Positions 15,020 through 26,331 of a stretch of DNA of 64,000 nucleotides are shown here, in pieces. The stretch is from positions 32,001 through 96,000 of the IMG/VR virus record IMGVR_UViG_3300029305_003884, one strand, 5' to 3'. This DNA is from a virus (Duplodnaviria > Caudoviricetes). The first letter of the stretch is position 1; every line of letters begins with the position of its first letter. Position numbers and translations under genes: made by a program. The notes beneath the pieces were generated by a model. The model did no database searches and was not told where the DNA came from. It saw only the letters and a program-made list of their open reading frames with translations.

Positions 15020-15028
15020 TAGTTTATA
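15020..15028 (-). promoter_or_regulatory. Late promoter motif TATAAACTA
   Basis: Exact motif 22 nt before ATG 14997. Confidence 0.8.
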
Positions 15029-18802: not shown

Positions 18803-21800
18803 TCAATTCGCCCAGAACTGAAGGGTACTATTAGTGAAACTTATACCAGAAACTGGTGTGGCATGAAGAACCACAGATGTTGCATCGGTCATAGTAGCCA
18901 GGTTGAAGTATCCAGGCGTCCACTTAATATCGCCTTGCCCTTCGGTAGCACTAGACGGATACACCGTAAAGAAATCAAGATTATAAATTTGAATCCAGAT
19001 ATCATAATAGGCATCAGTTGTATCGCTAGGCAAGTTGGAAGCTGAGTTACAGAGCACCGCCTTAACTTCTCCGCATGCGGCAAGTGTACGTGTACTAGAA
19101 CCTGTACCAATACCTGTACCAGCAGTATCCGTTTTGTCAGCTGTGCATCTTACATAACGTACAGACTGGTCTAGTCCAACGAAATTGAAGTGAATTTCAC
19201 GCTTTGCACATCCATTCGCACCAGAGGACATAACAATAAATGAACCAGCGGTAAAGCATGATATATTGTTTTCAGGATGTGGCACTCGCACTTGCGCTAC
19301 CTTTACCCATCTAGCTCCACCAGCGTTGTTATTTCCTCGCAACGTACGTTTAACGACGATATCATCCATGAGGGCGAGCTTATCGACCTTCATGATTTCG
19401 TCCCTGGTCTTCTGGCCGTTCGCATACTCGGCTTCCTTGTAACGCATCAATACTGGGTGAATGTGGTCAGTATAGCTAGGACCAGGCAAGAGAAGTTTCA
19501 CCGATTCCGTACTGCACGAAGTATCATATCCAGGAATCTTCGAGTTGTTGCCACCGACAGAAGAGAAAATGTGGGCGGAAGCGGAACCAGCAGAAAATTC
19601 GTCGAGGCCCCAGCAGTGACCCTCACGGGCAGGCAAGATGTACTCGGTACATCCGTAATGAACGTCTGCCAGAGTAGCAATGAGGAAACCACCGTACATC
19701 ACACGGGCGAAGTCGGGCTTCTGTTCGCCGTCTACTCTCGCACATCCACAAATCCAGTCATGGCAATGGCTCTTAGCATTACCAGTCAAAGCAAGCGTTC
19801 CAATGGTCGAGGTCACGGAACTGATATTCAGTCTAGGACCGTCAATGTAAACCTGGCTCTTGGAATCAAGCTTGACCATGTTTACTGAATACAGCGACAA
19901 GGTGTTTGCACTGCTTATAGCAATGTATTCGTTCTCATAATACAGGGCGCCCGCAACATCATTATCCTGCCATACGCCGTAGCTTCCTGCTGGTGCATAC
20001 CTGCTCTGGCAGATATATCCGTCCTCGGTAACTAAACCGTTGGTGATGTTGATGTTCGTCTTCAATTCTCGGATTGCATTTTCACCAATGAGTTCGAGTG
20101 CCGTGTTTCTCGGCATCTTATTGGTATTCACATCTCCGTGTTCGGCAAACCAGCGCTTGTCGTAGAAGTTGATTGCGGCAAGGCAGCTCTTGTCGGCGTC
20201 CTTGGAACGGTTGGTAAACCTACCGAGAACCATCCTTGTATTGGACAGACCGATATGGCTGGTATGATACTGCTGATAATCGCTGGTATCGAGCGTCTTG
20301 TCATGCGGGTCATTGCACGCAACTTCCAGAGAGCCGTCAGTGACTTCGAGATACAGTTCTCTGTGCTTCTTGTCATCAGTAGTGGCAACCCAGTGGGATA
20401 TATCCGTCTGGTTCTGGTCATCCACCATACCCATCATGATATACGCACTCGTTGCTGCATGAATGTAATCACGGGCGACCATGAACGCATTTTGACGATA
20501 TACCTTACTGTGAATATATCCATCGGAATCACTGCCAAAAACACCGACACCGACATACTGGGTCTGAATCTCGTCGCCTTCTGGAATATAACCCGTTCCA
20601 ACGATAAAGTTTGGTTTGACCCTCGGATAGTTAGCGGCACCGACAACCGTCTGGTTAAATCCAGCCGCAATCGTGAGGTAGTTCAATGCAGTAGAGTTTG
20701 CACCGAAGAACCTACGAGTCCTCGTCAGGTTATTGCCAGAATACTCGTAAGTATAGCTGGTATACTGGTTGGAACTGTACTTTGCTACACGTCCACCGTT
20801 TACACCGACTTCACTGAACCTGATATTGTCTTTAAGGATAAGCCTTGTGAATGCACCATGACTCTTGTCAATTCCAGTGATGGAAGTAATCTGGTGACGG
20901 AACTCGATACCGAACCAATTCAGGTAGTTCTTTCCGTTGATGGTCTGGTCATAGATAATGACCTGGTCGCCGACCTTGAAGTCAGACCATGTGACAGGAG
21001 TCAATTCATTCTGGTTATCATAGATATCAAGAATGTTTGTCGGGTTGTACTTGGTAAGAGACTTGGCCGTTTCACCTTCACAGACATTCACGACGACTTC
21101 ACAGTTTTCGTCAATCTTCGTGAGGTCAGGAACCTTGAAAATTAGGCCAGGGAAGCCAACACAGTTGAAACGGTTAGCTGCAAATCCGTGGCTGCCGAGG
21201 ACGACAAGGTCTTCACCACCTGCCGTCATGCCGTTGTTTTCGTGTACCTGGTTATTTAGACCAGCGTAGATACCAGCATACCTCGCCTGTATCATGCCAG
21301 CGTCGGATATTCCATGGGAGAAGTTTCCAAAGACGTATGTAGAAGCACCACCTGCCGTACCGTAAGTACCACGTAGTTTCGTGTTGTATCCGTACACGAG
21401 GCTGTAACTGCGGGATAGTCCAAGGTCTGCAGAATCATCCGTTGCACACCTGTAAGTGTACCTGTCCGTGCCGTTATCTCCGCCGAATACGACGGACGGG
21501 GCGTCCACCTTGAATTCCTGGTCAACATCGAACCACCAGTTGCGTCCACCCGCTACGTGGTCAGTCTCGTCACCAGCAGAACCGAGGATGATGGACATGT
21601 AGTAGCCCATCGGGAGCAAGTATGTCTCGTACTGGGCATACTTGTCAACTTCCATGTTCTCGTCGAATACTGGCGTCCTCAGGTTGATTGGAATCGGGCA
21701 CGAGTTCAGTATGACCGTCTTGTCCACTGCATTGATAATCTGGTCTATCCAATACTGGTTATCCTCTTTCTTGTTATTGGAGTTCAGATACATGATTTTC

Positions 21801-22132
21801 GAGTGGGTCACGACGGCATGAAGCAATTCGTCAGCATCGGCGTCGGCGACAAGGAGCGGATTAGAGTTGGCCGCAGGCATGAACTTCTCACGAACATTGT
21901 CGCAAGCGGTTTCGAAGGTGTCCTTGCCGAATCCGAGGGCGGACCATTCGTTGTAAAGCCTGTACAGGAGATAGATGTCATTCCTGGTCAATTTGAGCTC
22001 GACGGAACTCTTCGTGACGGTATATCCGTTTGATGTGCCATATCTGAGTACGGACCTAATCATAGCGTTCAAAACGCTCCTTGCATTATAGGTCAATACA
22101 TCGATTTCTTTCGTTATTCGTTCAAATGACAT
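18803..22132 (-). CDS. Putative tail fibre / receptor-binding protein
   Basis: 1109 aa with Gly/Asn/Ala-rich beta-repeat segments, late motif 28 nt upstream, AT-richer C-terminal module. Confidence 0.6.
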   Translation of the reverse strand: MSFERITKEIDVLTYNARSVLNAMIRSVLRYGTSNGYTVTKSSVELKLTRNDIYLLYRLYNEWSALGFGKDTFETACDNVREKFMPAANSNPLLVADADADELLHAVVTHSKIMYLNSNNKKEDNQYWIDQIINAVDKTVILNSCPIPINLRTPVFDENMEVDKYAQYETYLLPMGYYMSIILGSAGDETDHVAGGRNWWFDVDQEFKVDAPSVVFGGDNGTDRYTYRCATDDSADLGLSRSYSLVYGYNTKLRGTYGTAGGASTYVFGNFSHGISDAGMIQARYAGIYAGLNNQVHENNGMTAGGEDLVVLGSHGFAANRFNCVGFPGLIFKVPDLTKIDENCEVVVNVCEGETAKSLTKYNPTNILDIYDNQNELTPVTWSDFKVGDQVIIYDQTINGKNYLNWFGIEFRHQITSITGIDKSHGAFTRLILKDNIRFSEVGVNGGRVAKYSSNQYTSYTYEYSGNNLTRTRRFFGANSTALNYLTIAAGFNQTVVGAANYPRVKPNFIVGTGYIPEGDEIQTQYVGVGVFGSDSDGYIHSKVYRQNAFMVARDYIHAATSAYIMMGMVDDQNQTDISHWVATTDDKKHRELYLEVTDGSLEVACNDPHDKTLDTSDYQQYHTSHIGLSNTRMVLGRFTNRSKDADKSCLAAINFYDKRWFAEHGDVNTNKMPRNTALELIGENAIRELKTNINITNGLVTEDGYICQSRYAPAGSYGVWQDNDVAGALYYENEYIAISSANTLSLYSVNMVKLDSKSQVYIDGPRLNISSVTSTIGTLALTGNAKSHCHDWICGCARVDGEQKPDFARVMYGGFLIATLADVHYGCTEYILPAREGHCWGLDEFSAGSASAHIFSSVGGNNSKIPGYDTSCSTESVKLLLPGPSYTDHIHPVLMRYKEAEYANGQKTRDEIMKVDKLALMDDIVVKRTLRGNNNAGGARWVKVAQVRVPHPENNISCFTAGSFIVMSSGANGCAKREIHFNFVGLDQSVRYVRCTADKTDTAGTGIGTGSSTRTLAACGEVKAVLCNSASNLPSDTTDAYYDIWIQIYNLDFFTVYPSSATEGQGDIKWTPGYFNLATMTDATSVVLHATPVSGISFTNSTLQFWAN

Positions 22133-22160
22133 AGTCTAGCCGATGAAATTCAATCAAAAA

Positions 22161-22169
22161 TAGTTTATA
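22161..22169 (-). promoter_or_regulatory. Late promoter motif TATAAACTA spanning the IS left junction
   Basis: Exact motif 28 nt before ATG 22132. Confidence 0.8.
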
Positions 22170-22223
22170 ATGTTGCGGCGAGAAAACTCGCACATCTTTA
22201 GTGGGTGAGACGAAAAAAACGAC

Positions 22224-22252
22224 TTGACAAAAATTAAAACATTTTGTAACTT
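22224..22252 (+). promoter_or_regulatory. Sigma70-type promoter TTGACA-N17-TAACTT for tnpB
   Basis: Inside the IS left end, upstream of a structured leader. Confidence 0.55.
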
Positions 22253-22262
22253 ATATAAACAT

Positions 22263-22364
22263 ATAGGTAGAACAATGGATTACTGGCATTCTCTATTGTC
22301 CTATCGGTTCAAGATTTTGTGGCCTGTTGGGAAATTGAATGCCAGTTTAGTTCCCAACGGGCCA
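22263..22364 (+). ncRNA. Structured 5' leader: two hairpins with complementary loops
   Basis: Hairpins 22263-22304 and 22320-22364; loops ACTGGCATTC and GAATGCCAGT are exact reverse complements. Confidence 0.7.
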
Positions 22365-22373
22365 TTCTTGTAT

Positions 22374-23621
22374 ATGATAAGCAGGGCATACAAAATACGG
22401 TTGTATCCAACGGTAAAGCAGCAGAAGTTCTTTGCAAGAACTTTTGGTACATGCCGTTTCATCTACAACCGTGTGATTGCACTTAAATCCGCCTTGTACG
22501 AAGAAACCCGCATGTCGTTCACGCCAAAGCTTGCGTCATTCAAGGAAGAATGGCCTTGGATGCGGGAAGCCGACAGCCAAGGCATGGCTAACGTCTACAT
22601 GGATGCATTAAATGCATATCAGAAGTTCTTCGATGGTAAGTCTAAGTACCCGAAGTACAAGAAGAAATGCGATAAGCAATCATACCGAAATGCGATGATG
22701 CCTAAGACAATATCTAAGCTCATCCGTGGCACTAGAAATGACCGAATATTCATTCCGAAGGCGGGATTGGTGAAATTCCGTCAGGACTACGACTTCAAGT
22801 CGTTGCCAATCAAGAAGATATGCAGTTTAACCATATCCAAGTCGGCAACGGGGAAGTATTTCTGTTCGATAACCTGCGAAGTGGACGATACTTCGATGAA
22901 ACTGCCGCCGAATAAAAATGAAATCGGGTTTGACTTGGGAATCAAGGATTTCCTCATCGACTCCGATGGTTGCGTAATCGACAACCCGAAATATATGAAA
23001 CGGAGCGAAGTCAAGCTTGACAAGGCACAGCGCAGGCTGTCCCTGTGCAAGAAAGGTTCGAACAACTATCTGAAACAGAAGCATCGTGTCGCTCTGGTAC
23101 ACGAAAAAATAAGAAACCAGAGAATGGATTTCCTGCACAAGGTCAGCAAGATGCTAGTTGTAGAAAACCAATACATCTACTCCGAAGACCTGAAGCCGTC
23201 CAACATGTTGAAGAACCACCGCCTTGCAAAGGCTATCGCAGATGCGTCCTTCGGACGGTTCTGCAATATGGTTGCATACAAGGCCATGTGGTACGGTAGA
23301 TACTACTTCAAGGTAGGGTCATTCTACCCGTCAAGTAAGCTGTGCAATGTCTGTGGTTACAAGAACACCACACTGACGCTCGAAGACAGGGAATGGACCT
23401 GTCCTCACTGTGGTACATACCTTGACCGTGACCATAATGCCGCTATCAACATACTGAATGAAGGAAATCGTATACGTTTAAGTGGAGATACCGTACGGAC
23501 TGCGGAAGCCGATAAATCGACTATGCTCGTTGATACTGGTAAGATTACTTACCTTGAGCGAGAATCCTGTAACGCCACGGATGGACTCGGGGAAACCCAC
23601 CCATCTTTAGTGGGTGGGTAG
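22374..23621 (+). CDS. tnpB: RNA-guided endonuclease TnpB
   Basis: AYKIRLYPT N-terminus, RuvC-I GFDLG, RuvC-II SEDL, zinc finger CNVC/CPHC, RuvC-III DRDHNAAINI; start at ATG 22374. Confidence 0.95.
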   Translation: MISRAYKIRLYPTVKQQKFFARTFGTCRFIYNRVIALKSALYEETRMSFTPKLASFKEEWPWMREADSQGMANVYMDALNAYQKFFDGKSKYPKYKKKCDKQSYRNAMMPKTISKLIRGTRNDRIFIPKAGLVKFRQDYDFKSLPIKKICSLTISKSATGKYFCSITCEVDDTSMKLPPNKNEIGFDLGIKDFLIDSDGCVIDNPKYMKRSEVKLDKAQRRLSLCKKGSNNYLKQKHRVALVHEKIRNQRMDFLHKVSKMLVVENQYIYSEDLKPSNMLKNHRLAKAIADASFGRFCNMVAYKAMWYGRYYFKVGSFYPSSKLCNVCGYKNTTLTLEDREWTCPHCGTYLDRDHNAAINILNEGNRIRLSGDTVRTAEADKSTMLVDTGKITYLERESCNATDGLGETHPSLVGG

Positions 23622-23654
23622 TTCATAATCATGCCAAAAAAGCATATTCGATAG

Positions 23655-24914
23655 TTAATGTTCCAACTCATTCAAGTCAACGACTTTCTTGGCATACTTT
23701 TCGGGAGGGTCCTTGTCGGGATTAGTCTTCACCCACAGTATCTTCCTAACCCTGTATCTTTTAGCCAGTTTGAGCTCGGGATAGAAATCCATGTCGCTAA
23801 CGATGATTATGCCGTTGTACCTAGTTTTGCAGGTGTCCAGCATACGGAAAACACAGTTGCAGTCCGTGCCGCCGCCCGTCGCAATGGAGAATTGCTTCTT
23901 CTTTCTCATCATCGGAGTCAGATGGACTGGTTTCGTACACTGGGTATTCCACCAGCAATAGTCGATATCCACGTCCTTTCCGACGGCCAAAATCAGGGAA
24001 ATTATTCTGGAAACGGCACTTGTCGGCATAGAACGGCTAACATCGCCAGCAACCAGTAGCCTAGACCTGTACTCTGCGACATGGCCTGGGTACGCAAGGT
24101 CGAACCTGCGGTTCCTCTTGAAACGGCATTCCCTCCACCCGCACTCGATTGATTGGGTGACGAACTTCCTGATTATGGTACGTCCATCGACAGCCTTTTC
24201 AGCCTTCGACAGCATGCTCATGACACCGTTTGCCGTCGCCGTGCCCCAGCTTCCACCGCCATTAACAGCGGCCTGTTCAACCGCCTCGGTAACGCTACCG
24301 TCAGCATTCCACTCATCGGCCCTAGTCTCGTCGTTCAAGTATGTTGACATGCCGCCAGACGGGTTCTTTTCGCTGGAATCATCCTGCTGTTCCCCATCGT
24401 TGTTCTTACCACCGTTCTTGCCCTCGGTGAGCAGCTTATAGAGGATTTCGATACTTGCGTTACGGTAGTCGTACTCCTTGTAGAACTTGCTGTAATACAG
24501 AGAGTTGATGTTGGTTTCCAGGCGGGAAACCTTCGCCAGAACCTTACCGTAGGCGGCATTATTTACACCGATGTCGGAAGAAAGGCCCATCCTGAGGGCA
24601 ATAAGGTCGGATGCCATGAGGGACATCTTCTTGTCGCTGTAAAGACGGGTAGATACATGGCCTAATCCGATTCGGACAGCCTCGATGTAGAAAATCAGTG
24701 CAAGTTCTTGCGGTTCAAGAGTGGCCACGAAGTCACTGTTCATCTTGACATAGAGCTTTCCATTCTCGATGCCGCTGGCCACGCTGGTTACATCGTCAAA
24801 TACAAACTCAGCAAACCCGAGAACGGTATGCGTAATCGGGGCGTACTTAAACAAGAGATACTTGGCGAGCCTTGTAACGTCTTCGGGTTTTCTGTTTGTG
24901 TTTGTGTCGCTCAT
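23655..24914 (-). CDS. DUF2201-type metallopeptidase-like / VWA protein (MoxR partner)
   Basis: MIDAS DVSRS, GGGTD, SD; N-terminal domain has IEAVR where HExxH is expected. Confidence 0.8.
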   Translation of the reverse strand: MSDTNTNRKPEDVTRLAKYLLFKYAPITHTVLGFAEFVFDDVTSVASGIENGKLYVKMNSDFVATLEPQELALIFYIEAVRIGLGHVSTRLYSDKKMSLMASDLIALRMGLSSDIGVNNAAYGKVLAKVSRLETNINSLYYSKFYKEYDYRNASIEILYKLLTEGKNGGKNNDGEQQDDSSEKNPSGGMSTYLNDETRADEWNADGSVTEAVEQAAVNGGGSWGTATANGVMSMLSKAEKAVDGRTIIRKFVTQSIECGWRECRFKRNRRFDLAYPGHVAEYRSRLLVAGDVSRSMPTSAVSRIISLILAVGKDVDIDYCWWNTQCTKPVHLTPMMRKKKQFSIATGGGTDCNCVFRMLDTCKTRYNGIIIVSDMDFYPELKLAKRYRVRKILWVKTNPDKDPPEKYAKKVVDLNELEH

Positions 24915-25179
24915 ACTTTTCTTTTTCCTGGGTCTTCATAAAAATATATTGTTTTGAGCTTAGTCTGGAAAAATAATAAGTAGTGCAGATTCCCATGCGT
25001 AGCATGAGAAGGTGACAAATGTGATGTTCTTTGAGTTTGAGCTCCACTTGGTTGCTCTTTTTGTTGCTACCGCCACAGGATAGGGGCATTATGTGGTGAT
25101 TTTCGCATAGTTCCCCTATTACATATTCTCTTTTTTGTGCCTTCCTTATTATACTGAAATAGATGGCAGAATAATTCAA
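24847..25179 (-). CDS. Short HNH homing-endonuclease-like protein
   Basis: MNYxxIY...ENHHIMPLSCGGSN...N.V.L..KEH..CH.L. Confidence 0.8.
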   Translation of the reverse strand: MNYSAIYFSIIRKAQKREYVIGELCENHHIMPLSCGGSNKKSNQVELKLKEHHICHLLMLRMGICTTYYFSRLSSKQYIFMKTQEKEKYERHKHKQKTRRRYKARQVSLV

Positions 25180-25182
25180 GCA

Positions 25183-26331
25183 TTACCTCTTGAGATAAGT
25201 AATATCGTTCGAATCGAAATGAGTCGGCATACCGATGCTTTTCAGATAATCAAGTACCTTGAATATCTTGGTAGGATAACTCAGAGCTTCCTTCATCGAA
25301 GCCCTTATATTAACCGCATCGTTGGCGGTAATTTCACCACGGTCCACCATTCGATATAACATCGGCACACTAAGCTCCTTATCATTCTGGAACGGGCTCG
25401 GAGTAGTGCCTATGCCTCCATTATAGCAAGCAAACACGAACGTCATATCTCCAAGATGGTCGTCATCCTTTTCATTGGCGTTAACCTTGTTGCTGCGTTC
25501 GGTATCATACATGAGATACAGAAGATAGCCAGCGGCAAGGTTTATCGCATCTTCGACAACCTCTGGATTCCTCATCTTGCTGGCACTCAGGCCAAACTCG
25601 CCTGCATGCAACCTCGCATCCCGTATCGCATCTGAACCAAGCTGGGCAAGACCACGATATCTAGTCGTCTGCGGTTTATCGTTGAACATACTCTCAATAC
25701 AGATGAGGGCAAGCAGTTCAGCCTCTCCGATTCCACGAGAAGATGTAATCTGGGCCGTATTATGAACAGCACGCAATATGCGTTCTATGTGGGCCGCCTG
25801 CTGTTCTGGTGTATGTTTCACCTTGTATGCCTCGGCTAGGTTAGTTGAAATAAACTTCCTTACTGCATTGTCACTTGGTTCAGAAGCAGATGACTCAGGG
25901 AAAGACACGGACATCGCATCCCTGACTAGACTTCTGTCGTTCGTATCCTTTTTCACTGTAGGAACGGTGTCAAACTTTGCTGGACTGTCCTTATACTCGA
26001 AAGTGGTGTCCTTTTCGTCGAAAGTCCTCTCGGGGAGCTCGGCATACTGTTCGAGCTGTTTGTCATCAAGACCCAACTTTTGAGCCATATCGTGCCAGTC
26101 AGTATTGTAAATACTGGCGCCTGGGCTGCCTCCAATCAGGGCGGCACCACCTACCTTGATGGCCTTGCTAATCTTAGGGTAATACGTTTCCAGGTTGGAC
26201 AACCTGTTATAGAGCCCTTTCCAGTCCACCCCTTCATAGATGGCTGAATGCAGGTCGAAAATCGCTTCCATCTGCACTTTCGGTAAGTCAAGTTGCCTTA
26301 TTGCCTGTCGGAACTGCTCTTCGTTGGTCAT
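25183..26331 (-). CDS. Lytic transglycosylase (SLT) with N-terminal leader
   Basis: CIESMF (catalytic Glu), GLAQL, ACYNGG; start ATG 26331, 24 nt after the late motif. Confidence 0.85.
   Translation of the reverse strand: MTNEEQFRQAIRQLDLPKVQMEAIFDLHSAIYEGVDWKGLYNRLSNLETYYPKISKAIKVGGAALIGGSPGASIYNTDWHDMAQKLGLDDKQLEQYAELPERTFDEKDTTFEYKDSPAKFDTVPTVKKDTNDRSLVRDAMSVSFPESSASEPSDNAVRKFISTNLAEAYKVKHTPEQQAAHIERILRAVHNTAQITSSRGIGEAELLALICIESMFNDKPQTTRYRGLAQLGSDAIRDARLHAGEFGLSASKMRNPEVVEDAINLAAGYLLYLMYDTERSNKVNANEKDDDHLGDMTFVFACYNGGIGTTPSPFQNDKELSVPMLYRMVDRGEITANDAVNIRASMKEALSYPTKIFKVLDYLKSIGMPTHFDSNDITYLKR

What the first reader, a model, noticed from the sequence alone, without database searches (positions are those of the whole stretch)
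22159..23646. tnpB element inserted into a late promoter and regenerating it
Seen: applying the IS608 guide/cleavage pairing rule to the tetramers before each hairpin (AAAA, GAAA) gives TTAT|22169 and TCAT 23626| as the ends. The reconstructed empty site TAGTTTAT|AATCATGCC is the reverse complement of the late promoter ATTATAAACTA of the 22132 gene, and matches the TAGTTTATAATC context at 15020 and 50559. The element starts with AAT, the same three bases as the right flank, so the promoter is intact after insertion. All three RuvC acidic residues are present. Known: TnpB uses the right flank as guide and cuts TAM plus empty site. Inference: a (T)TTAT target motif is present in every late promoter, making them repeated, silent landing sites, and the active TnpB could drive homing against IS-free co-infecting relatives at an essential promoter.
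Basis: partly seen in the sequence, partly recalled or inferred. Interest (0 to 1): 0.75.

Follow-up and report, generated by a model that had tools for sequence, protein, structure and literature searches.

The report
TnpB insertion sequence inside phage promoter

Summary
Confirmed. Window 22169-23626 (1458 nt) is a tnpB-only IS200/IS605 element in a fragment (178 kb) of a roughly 420-kb gut jumbo phage.

- **Junctions.** Ten related phage loci and one sheep-gut contig carry the predicted empty allele TAGTTTAT|AATCATGCC. Homologous right ends elsewhere stop at ...TAGTTCAT|, which fixes both junctions.
- **Promoter.** TATAAACTA occurs 37 times in the contig, almost always 20-35 nt upstream of a start codon, including tail and baseplate genes. 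The element splits it after its first T, and its own first base restores it.
- **TnpB.** The protein (415 aa) matches ISDra2 TnpB at E 1.7e-73. D187/E271/D353 are intact, dN/dS is 0.06-0.17, and the 3' tail shows an omega-RNA-like constraint.
- **Other copies.** Of 10 mapped insertion sites of this element clade, 6 lie in canonical TATAAACTA promoters, at the identical position and orientation. This matches expectation: 37% of gene-sparing TTTAT sites lie in such promoters, so no special promoter affinity is needed.
- **Mobility.** No TnpA is found in this contig or in two complete relatives.
- **Homing.** Homing between co-infecting phages is untested. A 165-nt right-flank tract shared only with the other occupied lineage suggests the occupied allele spread by recombination.

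This is a new member of a known kind, in an informative setting.

The parts
22161..22171 (-). Promoter box ATTATAAACTA of the 1109-aa gene (ATG at 22132). Bases 22161-22168 are native flank; 22169-22171 (AAT on the + strand) are the first three bases of the element.
   Evidence: There are 37 TATAAACTA copies in the 178-kb contig, nearly all 20-35 nt upstream of an ATG, against about 1.4 expected.
22165..22168 (+). Left cleavage/target site TTAT (TTTAT with 22164). It is also the presumed TnpB TAM.
   Evidence: It is the junction in the empty alleles. TTTAT precedes the element at all nine sites whose left junction is visible.
22169..23626 (+). The whole element: 1458 nt, tnpB-only IS200/IS605 type.
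   Evidence: The empty allele skips exactly 1458 nt.
22183..22186 (+). Left guide tetranucleotide AAAA (GL), immediately 5' of the left hairpin.
   Evidence: Read from the sequence. The IS608 rule from PMC5934647 and PMC3201880 predicts TTAT.
22187..22209 (+). Left subterminal hairpin CTCGCACA-TCTTTAG-TGGGTGAG, degraded to 6 of 8 pairs.
   Evidence: Fold z is -1.7. The homologous hairpin is perfect in L329 (CTCACCCA/TGGGTGAG) and in L098/L302 (CTCACGGG/CCCGTGAG), which is covariation.
22254..22260 (+). Element-internal TATAAAC box, about 115 nt upstream of the tnpB ATG. It is a candidate phage-type promoter for tnpB and the omega RNA.
   Evidence: It is kept in seven of the eight aligned copies, and is an exact TATAAACTA in L098/L302 (and in L211); L322 reads TATAACC. 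Region 56-205 of the element is 93-99% identical among copies whose synonymous divergence is about 0.2.
22374..23621 (+). tnpB, 415 aa. It has the HTH, RuvC (D187, E271, D353) and zinc-ribbon (CxxC at 324 and 343) parts.
   Evidence: Pfam PF12323, PF01385 and PF07282. E is 1.7e-73 to ISDra2 TnpB 8bf8. dN/dS is 0.06-0.17.
23470..23626 (+). Presumed omega RNA scaffold, overlapping the last 50 or so codons of tnpB and the right end.
   Evidence: Seven compensated pairs across three copies. Synonymous divergence falls from above 1.5 to 0.18-0.31 in codons 367-415. No Rfam family matches. Expression was not shown.
23592..23595 (+). Right guide tetranucleotide GAAA (GR).
   Evidence: Read from the sequence. 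The IS608 rule predicts TCAT.
23596..23618 (+). Right subterminal hairpin CCCACCCA-TCTTTAG-TGGGTGGG.
   Evidence: Minimum free energy is -10.5 kcal/mol, z -3.9, and 0 of 200 shuffles fold as well.
23623..23626 (+). Right cleavage site TCAT, the last four bases of the element.
   Evidence: Similarity between right ends in unrelated flanks stops here.
23627..23642 (+). Presumed 16-nt omega RNA guide AATCATGCCAAAAAAG. Together with TTTAT it spells the empty allele.
   Evidence: Inference from the ISDra2 TnpB paradigm (PMC8612924). The 16 nt are identical in the empty L002 and sheep-gut alleles.
23627..23790 (.). Right-flank tract that is 95-97% identical to the other occupied lineage (L004/L005), although the two phages differ by dS of about 1.56.
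   Evidence: Within it, 23702-23781 differs from the near-identical empty relative L002 at 20 of 80 positions.

Best explanation
Window 22169-23626 is a non-autonomous IS200/IS605-family insertion sequence of the tnpB-only (IS1341-like) type. It lives in a lineage of roughly 420-kb T4-like gut jumbo phages.

It inserted, presumably as single-stranded DNA through a Y1 TnpA supplied in trans, immediately 3' of TTTAT. In these phages that pentamer is the complement of the ATAAA core of the phage's own promoter TATAAACTA. The cut falls after the first T of the promoter, and every copy of the element begins with A. The promoter strand therefore again reads (AT)T|ATAAACTA, and the downstream 1109-aa gene keeps its promoter.

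The genome is about 94% coding, and 37% of its gene-sparing TTTAT sites lie in such promoters. Promoters are therefore the main sites where insertions survive, and related copies occupy five other promoters in exactly the same way.

The element keeps an intact TnpB nuclease under purifying selection, a structured 3' RNA region and its own TATAAAC box. Its most likely current activity is the standard TnpB one. An omega RNA ending in the 16-nt right flank would guide cleavage of TTTAT plus AATCATGCCAAAAAAG, which is the empty allele. The element would then be restored or copied by homologous recombination.

Shown here: identity, boundaries, target motif, promoter overlap and regeneration, recurrence at other promoters, purifying selection, and absence of TnpA. 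Inferred: that the promoter still works, that TnpB and the omega RNA are expressed and active, and that TnpA comes from the host.
For: - **Identity.** Pfam domains; E 1.7e-73 to solved ISDra2 TnpB with the D/E/D triad aligned.
- **Empty alleles.** Ten related loci, and a sheep-gut contig that joins 22166 to 23625 and skips 1458 nt.
- **Right-end boundary.** Fixed by homologous ends in other flanks.
- **IS608 rule.** The guide/cleavage rule is met for both ends. The cleavage site lies 18 nt from the left hairpin, against 19 in IS608.
- **Promoter.** TATAAACTA occurs 37 times, positioned upstream of starts, including tail sheath stabilizer and baseplate wedge genes.
- **Other promoter insertions with empty alleles.** L211; L301/L327, with the empty allele in this same genome; L304-L321, again with the empty allele in this genome and found in contigs from many gut-metagenome assemblies.
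- **Other promoter insertions without an empty allele.** L322-L326 and L332.
- **Site census.** 335 TTTAT sites, 82 intergenic, 30 of those in promoters.
- **Selection.** dN/dS 0.06-0.17 among copies at different sites; compensated pairs and a drop in synonymous divergence in the 3' tail.
- **No Y1 TnpA.** None in this contig or in two complete 420-kb relatives.
Against: - Nothing here shows transcription or cleavage. The one RNA contig laid covers only the neighbouring gene and comes from an IS-free allele.
- No Rfam family matches the 3' region.
- The left hairpin of this copy has two mismatches, so it may no longer be excisable.
- Only 42% of the phage genome is in the contig, so a phage-borne TnpA cannot be excluded for this strain.
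- That the promoter remains functional rests on motif identity and on occupied alleles persisting in natural populations, not on any measurement.
- The internal box is TATAAACAT rather than TATAAACTA in this copy.
Confidence: 0.85

Rival explanations
1. Active homing. During co-infection, TnpB with its omega RNA from an occupied phage cuts the empty allele of a near-identical relative. Repair from the occupied genome copies the element in, together with adjacent flank (co-conversion). The TAM cannot mutate to escape because it is the promoter core. On this reading homing, rather than TnpA transposition, maintains and spreads the element at this site.
For: - The empty L002 and sheep-gut alleles carry a perfect TAM plus 16-nt or longer target.
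- Occupied alleles (runs X1 and X5, feces metagenomes) and an empty allele (run X6, sheep gut) both occur in animal-gut metagenomes.
- The window and L004/L005 phages differ by dS of about 1.56, yet their elements at this site are far closer (right end 92%, left end about 68%). A 165-nt tract right of the element is 95-97% identical between them, against about 79% elsewhere. That is what co-conversion predicts.
- The left end decays at about the neutral rate, while tnpB, the right end and region 56-205 are conserved.
- No TnpA is found in the phages.
- The idea is already in the literature as 'non-restorative homing' into co-infecting phages or plasmids (PMC13565253).
Against: - No experiment was done.
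- Ordinary homologous recombination between co-infecting phages would give the same tract, and mosaic patches are common here: about four in 6 kb between the window and L002.
- The 75 nt nearest the element are identical in the empty L002, so the tract does not cleanly separate occupied from empty alleles.
- The L004/L005 element is a 146-nt remnant without tnpB, so it cannot home by itself.
- The spread to six different promoters needs transposition, not homing.
Confidence: 0.3
2. Passive passenger. The element is an old, now immobile insertion inherited vertically. Empty relatives either never had it or lost it by precise excision. TnpB is intact only because too little time has passed, or because it serves the phage in some other way.
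For: - The left hairpin is degraded.
- There is a single copy in the contig.
- No TnpA was found.
- One related copy (L098) has an in-frame TAG in tnpB, and another (L303) has lost its left end.
Against: - dN/dS of 0.06-0.17, at synonymous divergence of about 0.2 among copies at five different sites, shows sustained selection on the protein after the copies separated.
- The closest relative, L002 (flank dS 0.04-0.13), is empty, so gain or loss is recent.
- A 96%-identical copy with a different right flank occurs in the sheep-gut sample that holds the empty allele.
Confidence: 0.12
3. Domesticated TnpB. The protein has been recruited by the phage as an RNA-guided regulator or weapon, in the manner of the nuclease-dead TldR repressors or phage-borne miniature Cas12 enzymes, and no longer acts for the transposon.
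For: There is strong purifying selection, and a conserved phage-type TATAAAC box lies in front of tnpB. TnpB genes are common in large phages (PMC12607003).
Against: - The catalytic triad is intact, unlike TldR.
- The element keeps transposon ends and occurs at many different sites, each with a different flank and therefore a different guide.
- No CRISPR array or fixed guide was seen.
Confidence: 0.03

Closest known systems
ISDra2 (Deinococcus radiodurans), IS200/IS605 family, TnpB with omega RNA
   Same: The TnpB architecture is the same and the sequences are strongly similar (E 1.7e-73; D191/E278/D361 aligned). The tnpB 3' end overlaps a structured RNA region that runs to the right end. The element inserts 3' of a pentanucleotide, which is expected to double as the TAM (TTGAT there, TTTAT here).
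   Different: There is no tnpA in the element or in the phage. The host replicon is a jumbo phage. The target pentamer lies inside the phage's own promoter core. TAM and guide use were not tested here.
IS608 (Helicobacter pylori), the reference for single-strand 'peel and paste' transposition
   Same: Both have subterminal hairpins and a 4-nt guide 5' of each hairpin that specifies the cleavage site by the same crossed pairing (AAAG/TTAC and GAAT/TCAA there; AAAA/TTAT and GAAA/TCAT here). The left site lies 18 nt from the hairpin, against 19. Empty sites are seamless, with no target duplication.
   Different: The right cleavage site lies 4 nt from the hairpin foot (the element ends 8 nt from it), against 10 nt quoted for IS608. 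The element is tnpB-only. The left hairpin of this copy is degraded.
IS1341-type (tnpB-only) elements and their miniature derivatives (PATEs/MITEs)
   Same: The tnpB-only organisation is shared. Short derivatives made of the two ends exist: the 146-nt element in L004/L005 at this very site, and single-hairpin forms of about 50 nt in L119 and L322.
   Different: Here the derivatives sit in phage promoters, and one shares its site with a full-length copy in another phage lineage.
Free-standing homing endonuclease genes of T4-like phages (seg, mob)
   Same: These too are selfish nuclease genes lodged between phage genes, often behind their own late promoters. They spread during co-infection with co-conversion of flanking markers. 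The tract at 23627-23790 resembles such a footprint.
   Different: Recognition would be RNA-guided and would distinguish alleles by presence or absence of the element. Homing is not demonstrated here.
T4 late promoter TATAAATA
   Same: It is a short A/T-rich single box without a -35 element, placed just upstream of structural genes, often in divergent pairs.
   Different: The sequence is TATAAACTA, with a downstream T...TGAAA and weak upstream C(-6) A(-4) T(-1). Neither the timing nor the factor that reads it was examined.

Membership tests
IS200/IS605 family insertion sequence (tnpB-only, IS1341-like group) | TnpB/OrfB protein with an HTH, a split RuvC and a zinc ribbon | tested here: met
   PF12323 (E 2.9e-16), PF01385 (3.6e-23) and PF07282 (2.4e-22), all above the curated cut-offs.
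IS200/IS605 family insertion sequence (tnpB-only, IS1341-like group) | Subterminal hairpins at both ends | tested here: met
   The right hairpin is perfect (z -3.9). The left hairpin has 6 of 8 pairs in this copy (z -1.7) but is perfect, and covaries, in sister copies L329, L098 and L302.
IS200/IS605 family insertion sequence (tnpB-only, IS1341-like group) | Insertion 3' of a fixed tetra- or pentanucleotide, with no target duplication and seamless empty sites | tested here: met
   Empty alleles were found for four sites. TTTAT precedes all nine visible left junctions. At three sites the first 3 nt of the element equal the first 3 nt of the displaced flank (AAT, AAT, ACT), which remains unexplained.
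IS200/IS605 family insertion sequence (tnpB-only, IS1341-like group) | Guide tetranucleotides 5' of the hairpins that are complementary to the cleavage sites (IS608 rule) | tested here: met
   AAAA gives TTAT and GAAA gives TCAT, under the pairing described in PMC5934647.
IS200/IS605 family insertion sequence (tnpB-only, IS1341-like group) | Y1 (HUH) TnpA transposase available | tested here: not met
   PF01797 is absent from the 178-kb contig and from complete relatives of 422 kb and 419 kb. The element is therefore non-autonomous. A host source was not examined.
TnpB (OMEGA) RNA-guided nuclease | Catalytic RuvC D-E-D triad | tested here: met
   D187, E271 and D353 align with D191, E278 and D361 of ISDra2 TnpB.
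TnpB (OMEGA) RNA-guided nuclease | Omega RNA encoded at the 3' end of tnpB and the right end, continuing into a guide of about 16 nt from the flank | tested here: inconclusive
   Seven compensated pairs in three copies, and synonymous-site constraint in codons 367-415. There is no Rfam match and no RNA evidence.
TnpB (OMEGA) RNA-guided nuclease | TAM-dependent, guide-dependent DNA cleavage | not testable with these tools
   This needs a TAM library or interference assay.
TldR (nuclease-dead TnpB-like repressors) | Loss of the RuvC catalytic residues and of the transposon ends | tested here: not met
   The triad is intact and both ends are present, so this is not a TldR.
Phage promoter of the T4-late type | A short conserved box, over-represented and placed at a fixed distance upstream of gene starts | tested here: met
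   37 copies against about 1.4 expected. Fourteen are in the window, and 11 of those lie 22-31 nt from the first start codon that opens an ORF of at least 40 aa.
Phage promoter of the T4-late type | Late timing and a dedicated late factor | not tested
   The only evidence is indirect: tail sheath stabilizer and baseplate wedge genes lie downstream.

The most novel reading that the evidence does not exclude
A phage-adapted IS200/IS605 lineage has matched its target and TAM (TTTAT) to the invariant core of its host phages' TATAAACTA promoters. Its first base repairs the promoter it splits, and it carries its own TATAAAC box. It is kept in phage populations mainly by RNA-guided homing of TnpB against IS-free co-infecting relatives. 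The TAM is an essential promoter core, so targets cannot escape by TAM mutation. The result would be a gene-drive-like element in jumbo phages.
Probability: 0.25. Interest if true: 0.8.

Novelty: new member of a known kind. Interest (0 to 1): 0.55.

Why it matters
TnpB's proposed natural role is to cut the empty site so that the transposon is restored or copied. This has been shown in bacteria and on plasmids. For co-infecting phages it has only been proposed (PMC13565253).

This locus offers a natural test bed:
- near-identical phages that differ by presence or absence of the element;
- a predicted TAM and 16-nt target that are intact in the empty alleles;
- a target motif locked inside an essential promoter;
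- a flanking tract that looks like co-conversion.

It also shows how a very gene-dense virus can tolerate insertion sequences. The only abundant safe sites are its own promoters, and this element rebuilds them. For genome annotation, it warns that tnpB genes in jumbo phages are discrete mobile elements with definable ends, not phage core genes.

Tried and rejected
- **No match in the phage collection.** Megablast of 20500-25500 against the 50,697-record phage collection found nothing.
- **No Rfam match.** At gathering thresholds on the whole window, and at E up to 1 on 22100-23700, no family matched. In particular no IStron ribozyme or described TnpB-associated RNA was found.
- **Metagenome pattern scan mostly chance.** The 16-nt pattern returned mostly chance hits. 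Only L101, L119, L137, L155 and L211 kept a right-end-like context after filtering.
- **Species-representative genomes.** No bacterial TnpB closer than 44% was found. The larger protein collection later gave 55-65% relatives in Paludibacteraceae MAGs, and about 81% relatives on a phage-like contig binned as Fibrobacter. These are weak host leads only.
- **Other remnants in this contig.** A fuzzy search for further full, mini or micro copies in the 178-kb contig found none.
- **Second TnpB in L013's genome.** L293 belongs to a different family and was not pursued.
- **RNA runs.** Only one RNA contig could be laid. It covers 21900-22163 of an IS-free allele, so nothing can be said about expression of tnpB or the omega RNA.
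- **Left end copied from the displaced flank?** Considered, then dropped. The resemblance holds at three sites (S1, S3, S9) but not at S10, S11 or S12.
- **Sigma-70 and terminator scan.** The scan of the element gave no more sites than shuffles.
- **L098 empty site.** An attempt to define it in this genome failed because the homologous intergenic region is too diverged.
Full report
**What the window is.** The window is bases 32001-96000 of a 178-kb IMG/VR viral contig estimated to be 42% complete. Relatives fetched through the neighbouring 419-aa gene include complete genomes of 422 kb and 419 kb with terminal repeats. The host replicon is therefore a jumbo phage of about 420 kb. Public runs that hold the stretch are animal feces and gut metagenomes, from sheep, cattle and pig. 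Downstream genes with PHROG matches (tail sheath stabilizer, baseplate wedge) point to a T4-like myovirus, as do UvsX/UvsY genes in a more distant relative that carries a related copy of the element.

**The observation.**
- *Ends.* The left flank ends TAGTTTAT at 22168. The element begins AATGTTGCGG at 22169 and ends GGGTAGTTCAT at 23626. The right flank is AATCATGCCAAAAAAG.
- *Empty site.* The closest relative, L002 (flanks 98% identical over the 2160 aligned columns, 94-96.5% over longer stretches), reads GGCATGATTATAAACTA. That is exactly the predicted empty site TAGTTTAT|AATCATGCC. Nine further related loci are also empty at this position. A sheep-gut contig joins 22166 to 23625, skipping 1458 nt, with 5 nt that fit either side.
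- *Resolving the ambiguity.* The 5-nt ambiguity (ATAAT) is resolved by homologous right ends that lie in unrelated flanks (L098, L211, L119, L137, L155 and others). Similarity always stops right after TCAT. The element is therefore 22169-23626.
In IS608, GL AAAG specifies CL TTAC and GR GAAT specifies CR TCAA, with the first two positions paired crosswise (A+16:T-3, A+17:T-4). The left site lies 19 nt from the hairpin foot (PMC3201880, PMC5934647). Here AAAA (22183-22186) gives TTAT, GAAA (23592-23595) gives TCAT, and the left site lies 18 nt from the hairpin.

**The protein.** The ORF 22374-23621 (415 aa) has the three TnpB Pfam domains. It matches solved ISDra2 TnpB at E 1.7e-73 over residues 3-364. 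D187, E271 and D353 align with the catalytic D191, E278 and D361, and both CxxC pairs are present.
- Against copies about 80% identical (L098, L211), dN/dS is 0.07-0.10. Against copies about 95% identical at other sites it is 0.06-0.11 (0.06-0.17 among all pairs of those copies), at a synonymous divergence of about 0.2. The protein has therefore been under selection since the copies separated.
- In the last 50 codons synonymous divergence collapses from above 1.5 to 0.18-0.31 and dN/dS approaches 1. A three-sequence consensus fold shows seven compensated pairs there. This is what an omega RNA scaffold overlapping the ORF end would produce.
- No Rfam family matches, and I have no RNA evidence.

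**The promoter.** TATAAACTA occurs 37 times in the 178-kb contig, against about 1.4 expected. Nearly all copies lie 20-35 nt upstream of an ATG, and many form divergent pairs. The logo is C(-6) A(-4) T(-1) TATAAACTA T..(T)GAAA, with nothing further upstream. It is clearly a phage promoter of the single-box type. 'Late' is only an analogy with T4 TATAAATA, supported by the structural genes downstream.

On the promoter strand the insertion point is T|ATAAACTA. The element's first bases AAT (ATT on the promoter strand) restore ATTATAAACTA, and bases 5 and 7 of the element even give the preferred A(-4) and C(-6). The 11-mer at the left junction is thus identical to the empty allele's. The right junction forms a one-mismatch copy (ATTATGAACTA) pointing into the element. 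This follows from the family-wide right end TAGTTCAT.

A protein search found a cluster of 121 sequences at about 95% identity and clusters at about 81%. I mapped ten independent sites.
- *Six sites in canonical TATAAACTA promoters.* All are 3' of TAGTTTAT, with tnpB divergent from the promoter's gene:
  - this site (S1);
  - L211, with empty alleles in four genomes including this one;
  - L301/L327, whose empty allele is in this same contig at the promoter pair 133364/133401;
  - L304-L321, in contigs from many gut-metagenome assemblies (pig gut among them), with the empty allele in this contig at 169335/169365;
  - L322-L326, in the opposite promoter of the L301 pair;
  - L332, on a phage-like 164-kb contig binned as Fibrobacter, where the right end's AT plus the flank's G rebuilds the ATG of a DnaJ-like gene.
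- *Four sites elsewhere.* These are TTTTTTAT| after a terminator (L098), GGAGTTTAT| (L302), ATTGTTTAT| (L329) and ATATTTAT| (the 50-nt L119 element).
- *Target.* The target is therefore TTTAT, often GTTTAT.

**Is the promoter hit rate special?** The contig is about 94% coding. Of 335 TTTAT sites, 82 are intergenic, and 30 of those (37%) lie in TATAAACTA boxes. Six of 10 is not above that expectation (p about 0.12), but it is far above the 11% for all TTTAT sites. The simplest reading is that a TTTAT target, selection against gene disruption and self-repair of the promoter together make promoters the main surviving landing sites. No extra targeting is required.

**Mobility.**
- No Y1 TnpA is encoded in this contig or in two complete relatives, so the element is non-autonomous.
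- The left hairpin is perfect in some sister copies (L329, L098, L302). It has 6 of 8 pairs here, and 5 of 8 and 4 of 8 in L301 and L304.
- Among the 95% copies, the first 55 nt are only 71-81% identical, which is about the neutral rate. Positions 56-205 are 93-99% identical and include a TATAAAC box about 115 nt upstream of the ATG. That box is kept in seven of the eight aligned copies and is an exact TATAAACTA in L098/L302 and L211; L322 reads TATAACC.
- The element therefore seems to carry a phage-type promoter of its own. In several resident copies the TnpA-related end is decaying while the TnpB-related parts are kept.

**History of this site.**
- On a tree of the flanks, the window is sister to the empty L002 (100% support; flank dS 0.04-0.13). 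L004/L005 form a deep branch (dS about 1.56) and carry a 146-nt derivative at the same site, consisting of about 75 nt of left end and about 55 nt of right end with no tnpB.
- That derivative is much closer to the window's element (right end 92%, left end about 68%) than neutral sequence should be after dS 1.56. The two elements are therefore younger than the split between the two phages.
- The 165 nt to the right of the element (23627-23790) are 95-97% identical between the window and L004, against about 79% elsewhere. Within that stretch, 23702-23781 differs from L002 at 20 of 80 positions.
- The occupied allele, or at least its right part with flank, has thus moved between divergent phages by recombination. 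That is what co-conversion during homing predicts.
- Plain recombination would do the same, mosaic patches are frequent here, and the 75 nt nearest the element are shared with the empty L002. I therefore rate homing as plausible (about 0.3), not shown.

**Comparison with what is known.** TnpB genes in phages, including large ones, are known (PMC12607003, and the cyanophage A-1(L) preprint). Restorative homing by TnpB is established in bacteria, and 'non-restorative homing' into co-infecting phages has been proposed in a review (PMC13565253). The element is an ordinary member of the IS200/IS605 tnpB-only group, closest among characterised systems to ISDra2 and IS608.

What is new is the setting:
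- a target motif that coincides with the phage's own promoter core;
- self-repair of that promoter;
- recurrent use of six such promoters;
- a phage-type box in front of tnpB;
- natural occupied and empty allele pairs with an intact predicted target.

**Verdict.** The novelty class is a new member of a known kind, and the interest is moderate.

Noticed in passing
L004:7268-7420 (= L005; IMG/VR 422-kb relative), homologous to window 22161-23635: A 146-nt miniature derivative of the element (about 75 nt of left end joined to about 55 nt of right end, no tnpB) sits at exactly the same promoter site in a phage lineage that differs from the window phage by dS of about 1.56.
   Followed up: yes
window 23702-23781: A patch with 20 differences in 80 nt against the otherwise 98-99% identical relative L002. 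The patch is nearly identical to L004/L005, the only other lineage occupied at this site. It may be a co-conversion footprint.
   Followed up: partly
L322:about 1953-2010 (also L323-L326): In the divergent promoter pair homologous to genome 133364/133401, a full element in one promoter directly abuts an inverted 49-nt single-hairpin derivative in the other. None of the native 29-nt spacer is left.
   Followed up: no
window 22169-22171; L301 and L304 left junctions: At three promoter sites the first three bases of the element equal the first three bases of the displaced right flank (AAT, AAT and, at S9, ACT). The ACT case needs a change in the element and is unexplained. Three other sites do not show this.
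   Followed up: partly
left ends of all copies (window 22172-22181 with 22210-22223): Bases 4-12 and the bases just 3' of the left hairpin are complementary in each copy but differ between copies (GTCGGC/GCCGAC in L332, GTGGC/GCCAC in L004). An outer helix around the left hairpin therefore seems to covary.
   Followed up: no
L098:about 1893-1895 (= L015): The 81% related tnpB copy has a single in-frame TAG where the others have CAG (codon 137). This is either a recent pseudogene or a hint of TAG recoding in that phage.
   Followed up: no
L293 (G003:C1:92601-95807): A relative of the window phage carries a second, unrelated TnpB (451-aa frame) at a different locus. These jumbo phages therefore host more than one TnpB family.
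   Followed up: no
window 23655-24914 (-): The conserved 419-aa gene next to the element matches PHROG 1314, annotated 'HNH endonuclease' (E 1.2e-20), but has no Pfam hit. It is present in all relatives, whether occupied or empty.
   Followed up: no
L332 (JAKSIB010000005.1, 164 kb, GCA_024399065.1): A contig binned as a Fibrobacter sp. MAG carries TATAAACTA promoters, genes homologous to this phage, and two tnpB genes of the same 90%-identity protein cluster as the 81% relative P0002 (one of them mapped here). It is probably a jumbo-phage contig in the bin, and a weak host lead.
   Followed up: partly
L303:2430-3760: An 82% related tnpB lies between uvsY and the uvsX region of a distant relative. 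It has no recognisable left end, a degraded right hairpin, and a direct repeat ATGAGAATTC on both sides. This is an immobilised or differently acquired copy.
   Followed up: no
window 21900-22163: A sheep-gut metatranscriptome contig of the IS-free allele covers the 5' part of the 1109-aa gene and ends at 22163, inside the promoter box. Contigs cannot define a transcript start, so this is only a hint.
   Followed up: no
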